From: Gammaproteobacteria bacterium
GTDB taxonomy: Bacteria > Pseudomonadota > Gammaproteobacteria > UBA6002
DNA length: 64,000 nucleotides
Direction: 5' to 3'
NCBI GenBank assembly: GCA_013697705.1
Contig: JACCWJ010000004.1
Coordinates: 30,938-94,937, forward strand
In this document: positions 4,767 through 46,967 of the stretch, piece by piece
Layout of the letters: every line of letters begins with the position of its first letter
Position numbering within the stretch: position 1 is the first letter of the stretch
The notes under the pieces: generated by a model
Told to the model about the DNA's origin: nothing
Databases searched by the model: none
What the model saw: only the letters and a program-made list of their open reading frames with translations
Translations under genes and position numbers: made by a program

Positions 4767-4773
4767 TGCACTA

Positions 4774-4839
4774 ATGCAGCGCAGCAGCATCTGATACTTG
4801 CCCGCTAAAGCAAAAACCCGGATACCGCAGCGCTCCATC
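4774..4839. repeat. Two degenerate fragments of the REP-like palindrome family seen at 45710-45892 (atgcagcgcagcagcat at 4774-4790; aaacccggataccgcagcgctccatc at 4814-4839)
   Basis: 12-nt identity (atgcagcgcagc) to the reverse complement of copy A loop and 9-nt identity (aaacccgga) plus ~17/20 further matches to copy A-prime; located just 3' of rpoH. Confidence 0.45.
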
Positions 4840-11551: not shown

Positions 11552-11781
11552 TTTTCGGTTTAAAAATTTATCGCTATACCCTAAGCCCCATGCTTGGGCC
11601 ACGATGCCGCTTTTACCCAAGTTGTTCGCAATACGCTATCGAGGCTTTAACTAACTGTGGCCTTATCAAAGGTAGTTATTTAATCGTACGACGTTTGTTA
11701 AAGTGTCATCCTTTTCATCCGGGCGGATATGACCCGGTCATTAGTTCGCATAATTTTTGTACCACGCCACAACCGAAGTAA
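11500..11781 (+). CDS. yidD: Membrane protein insertion efficiency factor YidD
   Basis: [26 protein letters not shown]...[13 protein letters not shown] matches YidD signature; start ambiguous (ATG 11500 or GTG 11515), overlaps rnpA 3' end. Confidence 0.8.
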
Positions 11782-32832: not shown

Positions 32833-34167
32833 ATGAGAAACTCCATTACCCGAGAATTTAAGGGTATTTTTCATCTGGCCCTCCCTTTAATTTTTAATTT
32901 ACTAGCATACATGGCAATGCAGGTTATTAGCACCGTTATGCTCGGAAGGTTAGGCCCTCAAGCATTAGCCGCAGCTGCAGTGGGTAACGTTATTTATATT
33001 ATTATCTTGGTGGGATGTATGGGTGTTCTTACTGCTGTAGGAACATTAGCCGCAGAGGCATTTGGTAAAAAAGATCAGATGAAAGTACAAACGATTAGTC
33101 AGCAAGGAATTTGGCTTGCCATATTTTTAAGTATTCCTGCTCTGTTAGTCGTTTGGAACGCGCATCATATATTATTAGCTATCCACCAGCCGGTGGAAGT
33201 CGTTCGGGGGGCAAAAAGTCTCTTGCACGGACTTTTTTGGGGGTTCCTACCCGAATTATGTTTTATTGGTTTGAGAGAATTTTCCACCGCCATTTCAAGA
33301 CCTAAAATTGTTATGTTTATCTCTGTTGGAACCATCCCCGTAAATATAATGTTAAATTATTGGTTCATTTATGGTGGATTAGGTTTACCGGCTATGAAAA
33401 TATTCGGAGTAGGGTTGGCTACTTCAATTGTTTGTTGGCTATCCTTCCTTGTATTAGCGCTCTATCTTTCGCTGCATCGCAATATTTATCATTATAAAAT
33501 TTTGCAATTTACACTTCCACATTGGAATACGCTAAAACGTATTGTCAAATTAGGGCTTCCCGTTGGAACGAGTTTTGTGGTTGAAGAACTCTTATTTGTG
33601 ATTGTCGCATTACTTATTGGTTACTTTGGTGTCGTTGCACTTGCAGCGCACCAAATAGCCATTCAATGCATGTACCTATTTGTAATGATACCTATTGGGA
33701 TCGCACAAGCGGTAGCCGTAAAGGTGAGCCAGGCTCGAGCAGATCCAACAAGGGTGTCTGCCTTTCGCGTCGCTTACATTGCTATCGGCTCTGGCCTAGG
33801 TTTAGCATTTATAACCGCTTGCCTATTTTGGTTTTTTCCAAAATTTTTCGTTCATTTTTTTCTAAATGTGCACATAGCTCAAAATCAACCTGTGCTTCAG
33901 CTGGCTGTAAAACTACTGGCCATTACAGCCATATTCCATATTATTGATGCGGGGCAATTAATAACAAATGGTGCGCTGCGTGGATTTCAAGATACATTAG
34001 TGCCGATGTTTTTAGGGTTAATTTCATTTTGGTTGATGGGAATAGGAAGTGGATATGTGTTTGGTTTCATTTATCACTATGGGGCGGTGGGATTATGGTG
34101 GGGTTTGGCGCTAGGTATTGCAAGCTCCGCAATCTTGCTACAACTGCGTCTGCAAACACATAAATAA
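32833..34167 (+). CDS. MATE family multidrug/Na+ efflux transporter (NorM/DinF-like)
   Basis: 444 aa, 12 predicted TM, N-terminal GIFHLALPLIFNLLAYMAMQVISTVMLGRLG typical of MATE. Confidence 0.82.
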   Translation: MRNSITREFKGIFHLALPLIFNLLAYMAMQVISTVMLGRLGPQALAAAAVGNVIYIIILVGCMGVLTAVGTLAAEAFGKKDQMKVQTISQQGIWLAIFLSIPALLVVWNAHHILLAIHQPVEVVRGAKSLLHGLFWGFLPELCFIGLREFSTAISRPKIVMFISVGTIPVNIMLNYWFIYGGLGLPAMKIFGVGLATSIVCWLSFLVLALYLSLHRNIYHYKILQFTLPHWNTLKRIVKLGLPVGTSFVVEELLFVIVALLIGYFGVVALAAHQIAIQCMYLFVMIPIGIAQAVAVKVSQARADPTRVSAFRVAYIAIGSGLGLAFITACLFWFFPKFFVHFFLNVHIAQNQPVLQLAVKLLAITAIFHIIDAGQLITNGALRGFQDTLVPMFLGLISFWLMGIGSGYVFGFIYHYGAVGLWWGLALGIASSAILLQLRLQTHK

Positions 34168-34175
34168 ACTGAAGT

Positions 34176-34220
34176 GATTGCATTCCTTGATGTAGCGAAG
34201 CGAAATCAAGGAATGCAATC
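34176..34220. repeat. REP-like palindrome: 16-bp perfect stem (gattgcattccttgat / atcaaggaatgcaatc) with 13-nt loop gtagcgaagcgaa
   Basis: Exact inverted repeat between convergent MATE gene and OM protein gene; loop is near-identical (12/13) to loop of hairpin copy at 45797-45833 whereas stem sequence differs (compensatory). Confidence 0.7.
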
Positions 34221-34235
34221 GCCTTGTGAAAGATT

Positions 34236-34877
34236 TCAGAACCAATAACGCAGCGCTAATCCGACTGCTGTAGAGCCGGTATTGTTTGCATGGTAAAGAC
34301 CGAATGCCCCTGAGCGATGATGAATACGAGCAATGATCTCCCATTCTGGATGACTAGGAAGACCAAAGGCCAGATCGAGTAATAAAAAATTTAATAACTT
34401 TTTTGCCTCTTCTGAATTTTTTTCTTCCGAGTAAGGTACCTTGGTGACATAGGATATCCCCTCCCCTACAGAAATGGTGGTTTTAAATTTGTGTCGCCAG
34501 GGAAAATGATACCAATTGAAAGCAATGTAAGGATTAAACTCTAAGATATCGCCATAGGTATCCTGCAGAACAGTAAAATTACCTCTGAAATCTACCGAGC
34601 TCATGATGGGTTGAAGAAAGCGTCGGACTGGATTGCAAGGATTTAACTCCTTGCCTATTTCTAATGAGTAAAGCGTATCTTTGTTTAAGGAATAATTGAA
34701 TGCGATTACTTCACCTAAATTATCGTTAGTCATTTTTCCGTAATAGATTAATGCAAACCATTGGGGATAATAGGCTGTGGGAAAAGCGGTTGTGCTATTG
34801 CACAAATCAGCGTAGGAATTAGTTCCCATTAATAATAATATAAGAACATATAAGCGTTTCAAGTAGTATTCCCTCAT
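34236..34877 (-). CDS. Small outer-membrane beta-barrel protein, possibly PagL-like lipid A deacylase
   Basis: Signal peptide, 213 aa, alternating amphipathic strands, C-terminal ...LALRYWF with terminal Phe (OMP signature); HHRSG segment loosely resembles PagL His-x-Ser catalytic motif. Confidence 0.45.
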   Translation of the reverse strand: MREYYLKRLYVLILLLMGTNSYADLCNSTTAFPTAYYPQWFALIYYGKMTNDNLGEVIAFNYSLNKDTLYSLEIGKELNPCNPVRRFLQPIMSSVDFRGNFTVLQDTYGDILEFNPYIAFNWYHFPWRHKFKTTISVGEGISYVTKVPYSEEKNSEEAKKLLNFLLLDLAFGLPSHPEWEIIARIHHRSGAFGLYHANNTGSTAVGLALRYWF

Positions 34878-44076: not shown

Positions 44077-45504
44077 ATGCGACGCACCAAAATTGTGGCC
44101 ACACTAGGCCCTTCTTCCGATAATGTAGATATTCTCTGTCAGATGTTGCAACAAGGCGTCGACGTGGTACGCGTAAATTTTTCACACGGTGAGGCAGGGG
44201 AACAAGAGGGCCGGGTTAATCGGGTGAGAGAAGTTGCCAAAAAAGTGGGCAAAGAAGTCGCTATCCTTGCCGACCTCCAAGGTCCCAAAATTCGTATTGC
44301 GAAATTTAGAAATCGCCAAGTTACCTTAATTCGTGGTGACAGTTTCATTTTAGATGCGGCAATGGCCTCCGGAGAGGGTGATGAAAAAGCGGTTGGGATA
44401 GATTATAAAGAATTACCCAATGACGTTTTTGCAGGTGATACCTTATTATTAGATGATGGACGTATCGTGTTGCATGTTGAACAAGTCAGCTCCCCCCAAA
44501 TCCAATGTCGAGTTGAAGTAGGCGGCTTATTGTCGAACAATAAAGGTATCAACCGTAGAGGTGGTGGCTTATCTGCAAAGGCATTAACAGAAAAAGATAA
44601 AAAAGACATTAAAACCGCTTGTAGCTTAGAAGTGGACTATATTGCGGTCTCCTTTCCCCGTACTGCAGAAGATATCAAAGAAGCCCGCAATCTCATTCAT
44701 GAAGCAGGGGGCAATGCCTGCATTATTGCCAAAATTGAACGTCAAGAAGCGGTCAATGCTATCGACGAAATTATCCTCGCGTCTGACGGAGTGATGGTGG
44801 CGCGAGGCGATCTTGCTGTTGAAATTGGTGAGGCAGCAGTGCCTGGCGTCCAAAAACATATCATTCATCGGGCGCGCACGTTAGACCGACCTGTTATAAC
44901 GGCGACACAGATGATGGAGTCGATGATTCACAGCAGTGTCCCTACACGTGCGGAGGTTTCCGATGTAGCGAATGCGATATTGGATGGCACAGATGCCGTT
45001 ATGTTATCTGCTGAGACAGCAGTGGGATCCTATCCGGTAGAAGTAATTGAGGCAGTATCTCGCATTTGTGTGGGCGCTGAAAAACACCCTAGAACGTTAG
45101 TCTCTAAACATCGTGTGGAAAGTCATTTTGGTCGCATTGATGAAGCCATTGCTATGGCAACTATGTATGCTGCTAACCACATGAATATCAAAGCAATAGT
45201 GGCATTAACTGAATCCGGTGCCACCCCTTTATGGATGTCGCGTATTCGCTCCGGGATACCTATTTTTGGATTGAGTAGACATCTGCGCACTCTTCGTAAA
45301 ATGACCTTATTTCGAGGAGTTTATCCTATTCATTTCGATGCTACCCAAATTCACCGCCCTGAAATAAATAAACGCGCCGTAGAAGAGTTACTACAAAAAG
45401 GCCTAGTAAGTAAGGGCGACCTTGTTATTGTCACTAAGGGGTCTGCGATGGGGGTGCATGGGGGCACCAATTCAATGAAGATCGTTGAGGTGGGTAAGAA
45501 ATGA
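44077..45504 (+). CDS. pyk: Pyruvate kinase
   Basis: MRRTKIVATLGPS N-terminus, 475 aa, tkt-gap-pgk-pyk glycolytic cluster. Confidence 0.93.
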   Translation: MRRTKIVATLGPSSDNVDILCQMLQQGVDVVRVNFSHGEAGEQEGRVNRVREVAKKVGKEVAILADLQGPKIRIAKFRNRQVTLIRGDSFILDAAMASGEGDEKAVGIDYKELPNDVFAGDTLLLDDGRIVLHVEQVSSPQIQCRVEVGGLLSNNKGINRRGGGLSAKALTEKDKKDIKTACSLEVDYIAVSFPRTAEDIKEARNLIHEAGGNACIIAKIERQEAVNAIDEIILASDGVMVARGDLAVEIGEAAVPGVQKHIIHRARTLDRPVITATQMMESMIHSSVPTRAEVSDVANAILDGTDAVMLSAETAVGSYPVEVIEAVSRICVGAEKHPRTLVSKHRVESHFGRIDEAIAMATMYAANHMNIKAIVALTESGATPLWMSRIRSGIPIFGLSRHLRTLRKMTLFRGVYPIHFDATQIHRPEINKRAVEELLQKGLVSKGDLVIVTKGSAMGVHGGTNSMKIVEVGKK

Positions 45505-45695
45505 TGCAAACACTCACCCAGGTGCTACTTATCATAGGCGCCGGATTTATTTTATGGTTCACCTATCAATCAATAAAACGCAATCCACAGGTATTTTCAG
45601 CGGAAAATATTAATAAAAGCATTTTCACCTTGGGAATTTTGGCCCTCTGTTTAATCGCTATTATTGCCTTTCTTGTTTATCTATTAAAAAATTGA
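45501..45695 (+). CDS. Small two-TM membrane protein (64 aa), translationally coupled to pyk (ATGA overlap)
   Basis: ORF start overlaps pyk stop; two hydrophobic helices (VLLIIGAGFILWF and IFTLGILALCLIAIIAFLVYLL); no family recognised. Confidence 0.4.
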   Translation: MMQTLTQVLLIIGAGFILWFTYQSIKRNPQVFSAENINKSIFTLGILALCLIAIIAFLVYLLKN

Positions 45696-45709
45696 AAGTT
45701 AACTACAAT

Positions 45710-45892
45710 CAACAACCTGGATTCCGCTGCGCTGCATCCAGGCTACATTAAAGATCGTGAGGTGGGTAAGATGATGCAACGCTCATCCAGGTACTCTAAT
45801 GTAGCCTGGATGTAGCGCAGCGAAATCCGGGTTTTTTACTGGCAACGAGTGTCAACAACCTGGATTCCGCTGCGCTGCATCCAGGCTACGTT
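45710..45892. repeat. Cluster of three ~40-bp REP-like palindromic elements: copy A 45710-45750 (+), inverted copy A-prime 45797-45833, copy B 45853-45892 (+)
   Basis: Copies A and B identical over 37/40 nt (caacaacctggattccgctgcgctgcatccaggctac[ag]tta); A-prime is their near-exact reverse complement; each forms a 7-8 bp stem (cctggat/atccagg) with 13-nt loop. Confidence 0.8.
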
Positions 45893-45962: not shown

Positions 45963-46967
45963 TTGAAAGTTATCTTTTTTACGATGTTACTTTTCCTGCT
46001 AGGAAGTTGCTCGGACTATGAAGGTCAGCCTTTACAAGGCTATGTAGAGGGTGAATATACCTTGATGGCATCGACTGTTTCAGGAAAGTTATTCAAATTA
46101 CATGTAGAACGGGGGCAATCTGTTAAGGCAGATCAACGGTTGTTTGATTTAGATCCTGAACCTGAATCCTCCGCATTTAAAAAAGCAAAATCCAATCTTG
46201 ATGCAGAAAAATCTAAGCTAAGAGACTACATGTCGGGCGAGCGCTCCACCGTATTGGGGGGCATTATTGCGCAACGGGAGCAAGCACAAGCTGATCTTGA
46301 GTTAGCTAAAAGCAATTTCAGTCGTACTGAACAGCTCTACCAGAAAGCAGTAGTTAGCAAATCTGACTATGATGATGCACTGGCAAAACTTAAATCCACC
46401 CAACAAAAAGTGACACAGTTTGAAGAGAATCTTAAAGAAGCAGAGTTGGGAGAACGACAATATCGAATATTAGAGCAAGCTGAACAAGTACGGGCTGCAG
46501 AGGCTACGTTACAAGAAGCAAAATGGCGACTAGAACAAAAAACAATTACAGCCCCGGAAGCAAGCCTTGTATTTGACACGTTATTTAATGAGGGAGAACA
46601 AGTTGCTGCGAACCAGGCAGTTGTTTCATTATTGGCACCTCGTTACATCCGTTTAATATTTTATGTCCCAGAGCCTATTCGCTCCAAACTTGCGCTCAAT
46701 GCACGGGTCGAGTTCGATTGTGATGGGTGTAACCAAAGATTTACGGCTTATATTAATTATATTTCGCCTGAAGCAGAGTACACCCCCCCTGTTATTTTTA
46801 GCCGCGAAAGCAGAATTAAATTAGTGTACCGTGTTCAAGCAAAGTTGCCCCTTGGGGTAGCGGCCAAAGTGACTCCTGGTCAGCCAGTGGATGTTTACAT
46901 TCCCCTGCAGACACATAAAAGAAAATATTTTTTCGGAATTAATTTATGGCAACTCATGAAAAAATAA
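45963..46967 (+). CDS. HlyD-family membrane fusion (periplasmic adaptor) protein of ABC-type efflux system, possible lipoprotein
   Basis: 334 aa, N-terminal signal with LLGSC, long coiled-coil region, C-terminal beta-barrel/lipoyl-like segments; TTG start at 45963 (ATG at 45984 alternative). Confidence 0.75.
   Translation: MKVIFFTMLLFLLGSCSDYEGQPLQGYVEGEYTLMASTVSGKLFKLHVERGQSVKADQRLFDLDPEPESSAFKKAKSNLDAEKSKLRDYMSGERSTVLGGIIAQREQAQADLELAKSNFSRTEQLYQKAVVSKSDYDDALAKLKSTQQKVTQFEENLKEAELGERQYRILEQAEQVRAAEATLQEAKWRLEQKTITAPEASLVFDTLFNEGEQVAANQAVVSLLAPRYIRLIFYVPEPIRSKLALNARVEFDCDGCNQRFTAYINYISPEAEYTPPVIFSRESRIKLVYRVQAKLPLGVAAKVTPGQPVDVYIPLQTHKRKYFFGINLWQLMKK

What the first reader, a model, noticed from the sequence alone, without database searches (positions are those of the whole stretch)
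34176..34220. REP-like hairpin family with a conserved 13-nt loop and covarying stems
The element at 34176-34220 is a perfect 16-bp stem (gattgcattccttgat / atcaaggaatgcaatc) around the loop gtagcgaagcgaa. The inverted copy at 45797-45833 has the loop gtagcgcagcgaa, which is 12/13 identical. Its stem is different (cctggat / atccagg; only the innermost gat/atc is shared). Loop conservation with compensatory stem change is the signature of selection on a structured DNA or RNA element. Random palindromes and simple terminators do not show it, and neither element has a U-tract. Both sit just 3' of genes (the MATE gene and pyk-sORF), and 34176 lies between convergent genes. Such structures are typical substrates for RAYT/IS200-like transposases and known targets of IS110-family insertion sequences (IS1111 in Coxiella inserts into palindromic repeats). 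These could be unoccupied insertion targets.
Basis: seen in the sequence. Interest (0 to 1): 0.6.

Follow-up and report, generated by a model that had tools for sequence, protein, structure and literature searches.

The report
REP palindromes, one atypical tagless copy
The hairpins belong to a known, widespread family of small bacterial repeats (REP elements, copied by a domesticated transposase), so the finding is largely ordinary; the flagged copy is an unusual member that has lost its recognition tag and sits as a recent insertion between two converging genes.

Summary
The hairpin at 34176-34220 (A) is real: a perfect 16-bp stem with a 13-nt "loop". The shared 19-nt core occurs 4 times in the window, against 0.08 expected.

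At 45716-45889 there are three copies, all reading GTAG-CCTGGAT-loop-ATCCRGG. B is on the + strand and is followed by TTTTTT. C and D are on the - strand. B and D form an inverted doublet with a 27-nt spacer.

Public-sequence scans show the same core, in the same GTAG + 7-bp stem architecture, in more than 250 copies from Alpha-, Beta- and Gammaproteobacteria. The stems covary. Most neighbouring copies are doublets with GTAG on the outside. In six loci a REP-associated tyrosine transposase (RAYT) gene lies directly beside a copy.

This is therefore the known GTAG-tagged REP/REPIN kind, close to Di Nocera's GTAG-3 family.

A is an atypical derivative. It has the REP stem-loop but no GTAG, and its palindrome runs 9 bp further than usual. 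It lies in about 60 nt of lineage-specific DNA, at a place where the two convergent genes overlap by 10-18 nt in relatives.

Whether this genome carries a RAYT could not be tested. The suggested IS110 targeting was not tested.

Verdict: a new member of a known kind, of low to moderate interest.

The parts
34176..34220 (+). Element A: a 45-nt hairpin with perfect 16-bp arms (34176-34191 and 34205-34220). Its 13-nt centre (34192-34204) contains a GC/GC mini-stem. The REP-like stem-loop proper is 34185-34211. There is no GTAG tag.
   Evidence: Sequence. Inverted repeat I2. Folds. Covariance model R1 matches positions 5-31 only, at 36.5 bits, E = 7.7e-8.
34170..34229 (.). Lineage-specific extra DNA of about 60 nt that contains A. 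It separates the 3' ends of the MATE gene (32833-34167, +) and the 213-aa ORF (34236-34877, -). The boundaries are approximate.
   Evidence: In relatives L247, L249 and L250 the same two genes overlap by 10-18 nt. The alignment shows the gap. The old MATE reading frame (..FQNQ*) still runs in frame to the TAA at 34246-34248.
45716..45746 (-). REP copy C: GTAG CCTGGAT GCAGCGCAGCGGA ATCCAGG. It is a singlet, starting about 20 nt after the stop of the 64-aa sORF.
   Evidence: R1 score 55 bits, E = 4.6e-13. It is a 42-nt direct repeat of D (D1).
45746..45797 (+). A degenerate copy (about 85% identical, with 3 indels) of the pyk 3' end plus the sORF start (original at 45473-45527). It lies between C and B. 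This is flanking DNA reiterated inside the REP cluster.
   Evidence: (D2, D4).
45801..45837 (+). REP copy B: GTAG CCTGGAT GTAGCGCAGCGAA ATCCGGG, with a T.G mismatch in the stem, followed by TTTTTT (45832-45837). It resembles an intrinsic terminator on the strand of the tkt-gap-pgk-pyk-sORF genes.
   Evidence: R1 score 52.1 bits. RNA fold -14 kcal/mol followed by U6. The simple terminator scan does not call it, because its loop exceeds 8 nt.
45859..45889 (-). REP copy D, the inverted partner of B. B and D together (45801-45889) form a doublet with GTAG on the outside and a 27-nt spacer (REPIN/BIME-like).
   Evidence: 55 bits; I2. The doublet folds at -68.9 kcal/mol, z = -12.6. The spacer length falls within the usual 23-31 nt seen in 61 doublets from other loci.
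4773..4839 (.). A decayed inverted pair of REP cores: AATGCAGCGCAGCAGCATC on + at 4773-4791 and GATGGAGCGCTGCGGTATC on - at 4821-4839, the latter followed by CGGGTTTTTG. It lies between a sigma-70-family (rpoH-like) gene and a DsbA-like gene.
   Evidence: 3 mismatches each to the 19-nt core. The fold is not significant. It scores below the R1 threshold.

Best explanation
**What the elements are.** They are copies of a GTAG-tagged repetitive extragenic palindrome (REP). The unit is GTAG, a 7-bp stem (CCYKGAT/ATCMRGG), and a bulged centre GNA-GC-GNA-GC-GNA.

**How the family works (shown in E. coli, inferred here).** The hairpin forms on single-stranded DNA. A REP-associated tyrosine transposase (RAYT/TnpA_REP, a HUH Y1 enzyme) recognises the GTAG together with the imperfect hairpin. 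It cleaves at nearby C|T sites and transfers strands. In this way inverted doublets (REPINs/BIMEs) are excised, inserted or amplified without target duplications.

**The cluster after pyk.** B and D are such a doublet. C is a singlet. The cluster also carries a reiterated piece of flanking DNA. B's U-run probably also makes it the terminator of the tkt-gap-pgk-pyk-sORF operon.

**Element A.** A is a derivative of the same family.
- Its 27-nt stem-loop is a normal low-GC variant (CCTTGAT...ATCAAGG).
- The GTAG has been replaced by the complement of the 3' flank, which gives a perfect 16-bp palindrome.
- It arrived with about 60 nt of DNA in the spot where the MATE gene and the 213-aa gene overlap in relatives.
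- Without GTAG it is predicted to be invisible to a RAYT. It is then an immobile relic that now acts, at most, as a strong hairpin between two convergent transcripts.

**Shown:** family membership of B, C and D; RAYT association of the family in other genomes; the insertion status of A.

**Inferred:** RAYT activity in this genome; how A lost its tag; any terminator role.
For: **Core is non-random.** It occurs 4 times in the window against 0.08 expected.

**Genome scan.**
- 141 copies from about 120 loci were analysed.
- 107 carry GYRG exactly 7 nt upstream of the core.
- The four stem positions that the search pattern did not fix pair in 76-97% of copies by Watson-Crick rules. The lowest position adds a further 19% as G.T.
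- Pairing falls to chance immediately outside the 7-bp stem.
- Pair types alternate: C-G/T-A/T.G, G-C/T-A/C-G and C-G/G-C.

**Metagenome scan.**
- 155 copies of the CCTTGAT variant were found, and 141 are GTAG-tagged.
- 28 of 32 neighbouring pairs are + then -, with GTAG on the outside.
- Across the 61 doublets found in all fetched loci, spacers are mostly 23-31 nt. The B+D spacer is 27 nt.

**RAYT association.**
- tblastn with E. coli RayT finds full-length genes 43-52% identical in L035, L087, L056 and L136. The two scanned against NCBIfam (L035, L136) score 192 and 177 bits on NF047646, against a cut-off of 80.
- All of them lie within about 300 nt of a REP copy.
- L035 is flanked by REP copies on both sides.
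- Partial RAYT matches lie beside REP copies in L161 and L158.

**Covariance model R1.** C and D score 55 bits and B 52 bits over the full model. A scores 36.5 bits over positions 5-31.

**Literature.**
- PMC3733652 describes GTAG-3 REPs, in which non-complementary di- or trinucleotides separate the stem from a GC-flanked loop of 2-4 nt.
- PMC2817692 lists the P. mendocina REP GTAGCCCGGATGCAATCCGGG.
- PMC3333891 shows that GTAG and the stem mismatch are required for binding and cleavage.

**A is an insertion.** No R1 hit occurs in about 58 kb of syntenic DNA from relatives, nor downstream of pyk-sORF in L251.
Against: - No RAYT gene lies in the 64-kb window or in the 9 kb to its left. The rest of the genome could not be searched, so the REPs here may be orphans.
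- Copy number in this genome is unknown. The density seen is low: 4 intact copies and one decayed pair in about 73 kb.
- A lacks the defining GTAG, and nothing like its outer arms was found elsewhere. The A-specific pattern gave 0 metagenome hits.
- B's fold alone is not better than shuffled sequence (z = -1.0 to -1.2).
- The covariation table is inflated, because the second scan fixed both stem arms. Only one search is unbiased.
- No transcript data exist for any terminator role.
Confidence: 0.85

Rival explanations
1. A is a hairpin that evolved in place as a bidirectional transcription terminator or 3'-end RNA stabiliser for the convergent MATE and 213-aa genes, and its resemblance to REPs is incidental.
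For: - A sits 8 nt after one stop codon and 15 nt before the other.
- It is very stable as RNA on both strands: -30.9 and -26.9 kcal/mol.
- REP-type hairpins are reported in the literature to stabilise mRNA 3' ends (abstracts of PMC3733652 and PMC3479197).
Against: - The 27-nt centre of A matches the REP model at E = 7.7e-8.
- Its centre is identical to metagenomic REP copies (CCTTGATGTAGCGAAGCGAAATCAAGG).
- There is no U-tract on either strand.
- Relatives manage without any spacer, since the genes overlap.
- A role as an RNA hairpin is compatible with a REP origin rather than an alternative to it.
Confidence: 0.1
2. The hairpins matter chiefly as unoccupied insertion targets for IS110/IS1111-family elements.
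For: - From my own knowledge, not verified here: several IS110-family elements insert into REPs, for example IS621 in E. coli and some Pseudomonas ISs.
- Nothing found here contradicts the idea that REPs can be targets.
Against: - Nothing in the window matched a transposase or IS family. The Pfam scans covered only part of its ORFs and the tblastn was specific to RayT.
- No interrupted copy was seen among the copies read.
- The family's distribution and its RAYT association already account for it.
Confidence: 0.03
3. The elements are a structured non-coding RNA motif selected at the RNA level, such as a regulatory 3'-UTR element.
For: - G.T (G.U) pairs are common at one stem position: 20 of 107 copies.
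- 70 of 153 low-GC copies are followed by TTT.
Against: - No Rfam family matches.
- Copies occur in both orientations relative to neighbouring genes, and as inverted doublets.
- The strand-specific GTAG tag and the adjacent RAYT genes point to recognition at the DNA level (PMC3333891).
Confidence: 0.02

Closest known systems
E. coli REP/BIME elements and their TnpA_REP (RayT, NP_414763)
   Same: - A 5' GTAG tag.
- A stem of the ..CCGGAT/ATCCGG.. type.
- An imperfect centre with bulges.
- An extragenic position.
- Inverted doublets.
- RAYTs beside copies with the same core in other genomes are 43-52% identical to E. coli RayT.
   Different: - The centre is a fixed 13-nt GNA-GC-GNA-GC-GNA, not the longer E. 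coli y/z loops.
- The stem is CCYKGAT.
- No RAYT has been found for this genome.
- Copy density here looks much lower than in E. coli.
GTAG-3 family of Di Nocera et al. 2013 (PMC3733652), including the P. mendocina REP GTAGCCCGGATGCAATCCGGG (PMC2817692) and the Bradyrhizobium / R. palustris REPs
   Same: - The identical GTAG + CCCGGAT/ATCCGGG frame.
- The text's description fits: non-complementary di- or trinucleotides between the stem and a short GC-flanked loop.
- Bradyrhizobium and Rhodopseudomonas were among the commonest hits for the exact core.
   Different: - Assignment to GTAG-3 rests on the paper's text. Its Figure 1 with the consensus sequences is not held, so the match could not be checked base by base.
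- This host is an uncultured low-GC gammaproteobacterium with the T-containing stem variants.
REPINs of Pseudomonas fluorescens SBW25 (Bertels and Rainey, PMC3116915, PMC3337134)
   Same: - B and D are two inverted REPs with a short spacer, forming one long hairpin.
- Doublets dominate among neighbouring copies in the metagenome set (28 of 32).
- The singlets and the decayed pair fit the view that singlets are remnants.
   Different: - The sequence family is different.
- Replication of doublets has not been shown here.
REPs embedded in longer palindromes (A. variabilis GTAG-15, T. roseum GTAG-23, H. neapolitanus CGTC-1; PMC3733652)
   Same: A is a REP stem-loop lying inside a longer perfect palindrome.
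   Different: - In those cases tagged REPs or dimers sit in a recurrent palindromic target.
- A has no tag, and its outer arms were found nowhere else.
- The nearest analogue is one tagless copy in L133, whose palindrome extends 7 bp beyond the REP stem.

Membership tests
REP (GTAG-tagged repetitive extragenic palindrome) | A short (20-40 bp) imperfect palindrome able to form a stem-loop | tested here: met
   B, C and D have a 7-bp stem and a bulged 13-nt centre. A has the same centre.
REP (GTAG-tagged repetitive extragenic palindrome) | A conserved GTAG tetranucleotide at the 5' foot of the hairpin | tested here: met
   Met for B (45801-45804), C and D. Not met for A, whose 5' flank is GCATT. 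A is therefore reported as REP-derived, not as a canonical member.
REP (GTAG-tagged repetitive extragenic palindrome) | Extragenic location | tested here: met
   All copies lie between ORFs. A lies between convergent stop codons.
REP (GTAG-tagged repetitive extragenic palindrome) | Many dispersed copies in the same genome | tested here: inconclusive
   There are three loci (4 intact copies and 1 decayed pair) in about 73 kb. A Logan contig breaks inside copy C.
REPIN / BIME organisation | Inverted doublets with a short, regular spacer | tested here: met
   B and D have GTAG on the outside and a 27-nt spacer. The same arrangement holds in 28 of 32 neighbouring pairs elsewhere, with spacers mostly 23-31 nt.
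REP-RAYT system | A cognate RAYT (TnpA_REP) gene in the same genome, typically flanked by the REPs | not testable with these tools
   None lies in the window or in L246 (tblastn). For the same REP core in other genomes the feature is met: L035, L056, L087 and L136, plus partial genes in L161 and L158.
REP-RAYT system | Binding and cleavage of the single-stranded REP by the RAYT, dependent on GTAG | not testable with these tools
   Shown only for E. coli (PMC3333891) and for three other pairs (PMC8266576).
Intrinsic (rho-independent) terminator | A GC-rich stem with a short loop, followed directly by a U-tract | tested here: inconclusive
   B has a 7-bp stem including one G.U pair, followed by U6, but its centre is 13 nt, so the consensus scan does not call it. 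A has no U-tract on either strand.
IS110/IS1111 target sites | IS110-family elements present in the genome and found inserted in copies of the palindrome | not tested
   Nothing in the window matched a transposase family, though the Pfam scans covered only part of its ORFs. Interrupted copies were not searched for.
Known structured RNA families (Rfam) | A match to a curated covariance model | tested here: not met
   No matches at gathering score in the whole window.

The most novel reading that the evidence does not exclude
A may be more than a dead REP. It may be a REP stem-loop converted into a perfect 16-bp tagless palindrome, either by hairpin-templated repair or under selection. It would then have been retained because it pulled apart two convergent genes that overlap in relatives, and now serves as an insulator or bidirectional RNA 3'-end hairpin. 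If such tagless extended copies recur (one analogue was seen among 155 metagenomic copies, in L133), they would mark a regular route by which REPs escape their transposase and become fixed host structures.
Probability: 0.12. Interest if true: 0.45.

Novelty: new member of a known kind. Interest (0 to 1): 0.25.

Why it matters
The value is mainly for annotation. It places these hairpins, in an uncultured low-GC gammaproteobacterial MAG, within the GTAG-tagged REP/REPIN-RAYT world. It also corrects the picture of the pyk-downstream cluster.

Two points could interest people who work on REPs:
- **Breadth of the core.** One 19-nt REP core, with the same tag and stem frame, turns up almost unchanged in Alpha-, Beta- and Gammaproteobacteria. 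REP-RAYT pairs are usually described as lineage-specific.
- **A clean before-and-after case.** A REP-derived hairpin has been inserted exactly where two convergent genes overlap in relatives. It has lost the GTAG tag and gained a perfect long stem. This could be used to test what a RAYT really needs and what becomes of copies that escape it.

Tried and rejected
1. **Chance palindrome.** Rejected on shuffle statistics and on recurrence of the core.
2. **Known RNA family.** None matched.
3. **A as a member of an A-type subfamily.** The pattern TTCCTTGATGNAGCGNAGCGNAATCAAGGAA gave 0 hits in metagenome contigs. Searches for the outer arms in about 250 loci found only partial resemblances in L113 and L169.
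4. **A as a circular permutation of a REPIN, with spacer halves flanking one REP.** Rejected because none of 61 doublets has spacer ends complementary over more than 4 nt, and none starts with AATGCA.
5. **MATE as a unique insertion bringing A along.** Rejected. First impressions from L124 and L125 suggested it. However, L247-L250 have MATE at the same place without A.
6. **Looking up P0001 and a right-edge protein to walk further along the genome.** Neither is on record.
7. **NCBI locus for P0014.** It had no DNA available.
8. **Full-text search for the core sequence in papers, and a search of Di Nocera's supplements.** One unrelated paper and no supplement hits.
9. **Rfam scan of the Firmicutes loci that carry the core in another context.** Nothing at the motif.
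10. **A third homologue search to find this genome's RAYT.** Not attempted. NCBI names for annotated proteins do not carry the locus tag, so a hit could not have been tied to this MAG.

Full report
**1. The observation**

The sequence at 34176-34220 is as described. The arms GATTGCATTCCTTGAT and ATCAAGGAATGCAATC are perfectly complementary around GTAGCGAAGCGAA. This is among the longest short-range inverted repeats in the window, and the longest that forms a well-paired hairpin (I2).

- As single-stranded DNA it folds at -18.7 kcal/mol, against -4.7 +/- 1.7 for shuffles (z = -8.5).
- As RNA it folds at -30.9 kcal/mol (z = -7.6).
- In every fold the "loop" is structured: a two-pair GC/GC mini-stem closes a 3-nt loop and is flanked by 3-nt bulges.

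The core GATGYAGCGNAGCGRAATC occurs four times in the window when up to 3 mismatches are allowed. Dinucleotide shuffles give 0.08.

- The copy at 45801-45831 (B) is on the same strand as A.
- Its right arm is ATCCGGG, which gives a T.G mismatch.
- Its stem CCTGGAT differs from A's inner stem CCTTGAT at one position only.
- It is followed at once by TTTTTT.
- Two further copies on the other strand were missed: C (45716-45746) and D (45859-45889). Both read GTAGCCTGGATGCAGCGCAGCGGAATCCAGG.
- The GTAG in front of B, C and D was also missed.
- A decayed inverted pair lies at 4773-4839.

**2. The family**

A pattern scan of one genome per species hit its 120-locus limit.

- Of 141 copies read, 107 have GYRG (103 have exactly GTAG) exactly 7 nt upstream of the core.
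- The hosts include Bradyrhizobium, Rhodopseudomonas, Rhodocyclaceae, Gallionellales, Rhodanobacteraceae, Methylococcales, Chromatiales, a Legionellales MAG and Legionella massiliensis.
- The search pattern left the four outer stem positions free. At those positions Watson-Crick pairing is 97, 76 (plus 19% G.T), 97 and 93%.
- Pairing drops to 3-29% immediately outside the stem.
- Alternative pair types occur: G-C/T-A/C-G, C-G/T-A/T.G and C-G/G-C.

A second scan, in metagenome contigs, searched for A's stem variant CCTTGAT...ATCAAGG.

- It returned 155 copies, of which 141 (91%) are GTAG-tagged.
- In 142 the palindrome stops at the 7-bp stem.
- Of 32 neighbouring pairs, 28 are + then -, with GTAG on the outside.
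- Across all loci, 61 such doublets have spacers mostly 23-31 nt long.
- In the window, B and D form exactly this doublet with a 27-nt spacer. It folds as one long hairpin at -68.9 kcal/mol, z = -12.6.

A covariance model was built from 70 distinct tagged copies (A2, R1).

- It scores C and D at 55 bits and B at 52 bits over the full length.
- It scores A at 36.5 bits (E = 7.7e-8) over model positions 5-31 only. That is the whole stem-loop without the tag.
- The pair counts (98% paired, 0 of 500 shuffles as high) are partly inflated, because the second scan fixed both arms. One search is the unbiased test.

**3. The enzyme**

The E. coli K-12 RayT protein was taken from the annotated record. 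tblastn against all fetched loci found four full-length homologues:

| Locus | Source | Identity to RayT |
|---|---|---|
| L035 | Formivibrio | 52% |
| L087 | Chromatiaceae | 51% |
| L056 | Halofilum | 47% |
| L136 | metagenome | 43% |

- Partial homologues lie in L161 and L158.
- Each lies within about 300 nt of a REP copy. In L035 copies flank both sides of the gene.
- All four full-length proteins hit Pfam Y1_Tnp. Three pass the curated cut-off and L056 falls just below it.
- L035 and L136 reach 192 and 177 bits on NCBIfam NF047646, "REP-associated tyrosine transposase" (cut-off 80).

The published work agrees with this picture.

- Ton-Hoang et al. (PMC3333891) showed that E. coli TnpA_REP acts only on single-stranded DNA.
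- They showed that it needs both the GTAG and the mismatch in the stem. A GTAG mutant, or a REP made perfectly palindromic, is neither bound nor cleaved.
- They showed that it cuts at C|T sites in the inverted partner or the linker.
- Di Nocera et al. (PMC3733652) describe a GTAG-3 family covering E. coli, P. mendocina, C. burnetii and rhizobial REPs. In it, non-complementary di- or trinucleotides separate the stem from a short GC-flanked loop.
- Nunvar et al. (PMC2817692) list the P. mendocina REP as GTAGCCCGGATGCAATCCGGG, which is the same tag and stem.

The elements here fit that description. I could not check Di Nocera's Figure 1 consensus directly.

**4. This genome**

The window comes from an NCBI MAG labelled Gammaproteobacteria bacterium, with locus tags H0U71_. 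It starts about 9 kb from dnaA.

- The ORFs scanned encode housekeeping and transporter functions: ftsYEX, rpoH-like, glyQS, cydAB, polA, tkt-gap-pgk-pyk and ABC transporters. The 11.8-27.4 kb stretch was not scanned; I read it as yidC and the atp operon from ORF sizes and the synteny of the relatives.
- No tRNA genes were found, and no scanned ORF matched a transposase family.
- There is no RayT-like sequence in the window or in the 9 kb to its left.
- Whether the genome has a RAYT could not be tested.
- A Logan contig of the same organism ends inside copy C, as expected for a repeated sequence.

**5. Element A in context**

Relatives with the same gene order (cydBA, MATE, the 201-255-aa homologue, polA) were recovered through homologues of the two flanking genes.

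- In L247, L249 and L250 the MATE gene and the convergent gene overlap by 10, 13 and 18 nt. Both proteins keep the same C-terminal motifs, including ..ALRY[RHW]F*.
- The window instead has a 68-nt spacer.
- The nucleotide alignment places about 60 extra nt there, roughly 34170-34229, including the whole hairpin.
- The former MATE reading frame can still be followed through the insertion to ..FQNQ*, ending at the TAA at 34246-34248. Compare ..TQNR* in L249.
- The present stop codon aligns with a sense codon in relatives.
- None of the relatives' loci (about 58 kb) contains a REP.

A is therefore a lineage-specific insertion, not an ancient conserved structure.

- Its stem-loop is an ordinary low-GC REP variant. 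The 27-mer is identical to metagenomic copies.
- Where those copies have GTAG, A has the exact complement of its own 3' flank.
- Among 155 metagenomic copies, one tagless copy (L133) likewise has a palindrome extended 7 bp beyond the stem.
- Several others have GTAG paired with a downstream CTAC.
- How A's arms became perfect is inferred, not shown. Hairpin-templated correction of a quasi-palindrome is the simplest idea.
- By analogy with the E. coli enzyme, loss of GTAG should make A invisible to a RAYT.

**6. The cluster after pyk**

- The 64-aa sORF that follows pyk is a real conserved gene. A 73% identical ORF follows pyk in L251.
- That relative has no REP within 330 nt downstream.
- In the window, the 52 nt between C and B are an approximately 85% copy of the pyk end plus the sORF start.
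- A 13-mer at the sORF end recurs at the start of the HlyD-like gene with the same spacing of about 272 nt.
- This suggests a local duplication associated with the REPs. Di Nocera et al. note the same for REP clusters. I could not resolve it fully.
- B, with its U6 run on the operon strand, is the obvious candidate for the operon's terminator.
- 70 of 153 low-GC copies elsewhere are also followed by TTT.
- The consensus terminator scan does not call B because of its 13-nt centre. No expression data exist.

**7. Verdict**

- The REP/RAYT reading is right for the family and for B, C and D.
- It is doubtful for the flagged copy A itself.
- The IS110-target idea is untested.

This is a new member of a known kind. 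What remains mildly interesting is the near-identical core across three proteobacterial classes, and A as a tagless, lengthened, recently inserted derivative sitting where two genes used to overlap.

Noticed in passing
L002, L012, L037, L049, L070, L080, L086, L092, L098 (motif positions listed): The same 19-nt core occurs in Lachnospiraceae and other Firmicutes-type contigs with a different, conserved flank (..gccacatcga[core]gagatgg..) and no GTAG. It is not a proteobacterial REP. An Rfam scan finds nothing at the motif.
   Followed up: partly
L015 ~6396, L026 ~3250, L111 ~3626; window 34209-34218: Partner REPs in some doublets carry the centre GGAATGCAATGGA instead of GCAGCGCAGCGGA. The inner mini-stem changes from GC/GC to AT/AT, a double compensatory change. 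The 10-mer GGAATGCAAT is also A's outer right arm, and the meaning of that is unclear.
   Followed up: partly
window 45473-45527 versus 45746-45797; 45692-45704 versus 45963-45975: A copy of the pyk end plus the sORF start lies between REP C and REP B. A second short repeat has the same spacing of about 272 nt. This suggests a local tandem duplication tied to the REP cluster. The intervening 165 nt cannot be aligned.
   Followed up: partly
window 45501-45695 (+); L251 5001-5189: The 64-aa hydrophobic sORF, whose start overlaps the pyk stop, is conserved. A 62-aa ORF 73% identical follows pyk in a JGI contig. JGI labels it a TRAP transporter small permease, which looks doubtful for a protein of this size.
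   Followed up: partly
window 32833-34877; L247, L249, L250; L124, L125: The MATE gene between cydA and the 213-aa gene is present in some relatives and absent in others. Where it is present, the two convergent genes overlap by 10-18 nt.
   Followed up: yes
window 4773-4839: A decayed inverted REP pair lies downstream of the rpoH-like gene. The - strand half ends in CGGGTTTTTG.
   Followed up: partly
L246 ~4063 (recF-gyrB spacer, about 4.7 kb left of the window): A REP-core-like fragment, GGTGAAGCGTAGCAAAATCAAGG, with no matching left arm.
   Followed up: no
L002-L121 copies; window 45807/45829: A T.G mismatch at the third stem position (CCTGGAT/ATCCGGG, as in B) is frequent: 20 of 107 tagged copies. 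It may be an intermediate between the C-G and T-A stem variants, or a sign of function at the RNA level.
   Followed up: no
L001 (Logan SRR11719871 contig), end at 11662: The 56-kb contig of the same organism ends inside REP copy C. An assembly break at that point fits a repeated sequence.
   Followed up: no
L251 5340-5440: A GC-rich stretch with internal complementarity lies downstream of the sORF in the relative (cggaccccaaaaagcc...gcggaccagcc...cgggacgtgtgg). It is unrelated to the REP family.
   Followed up: no
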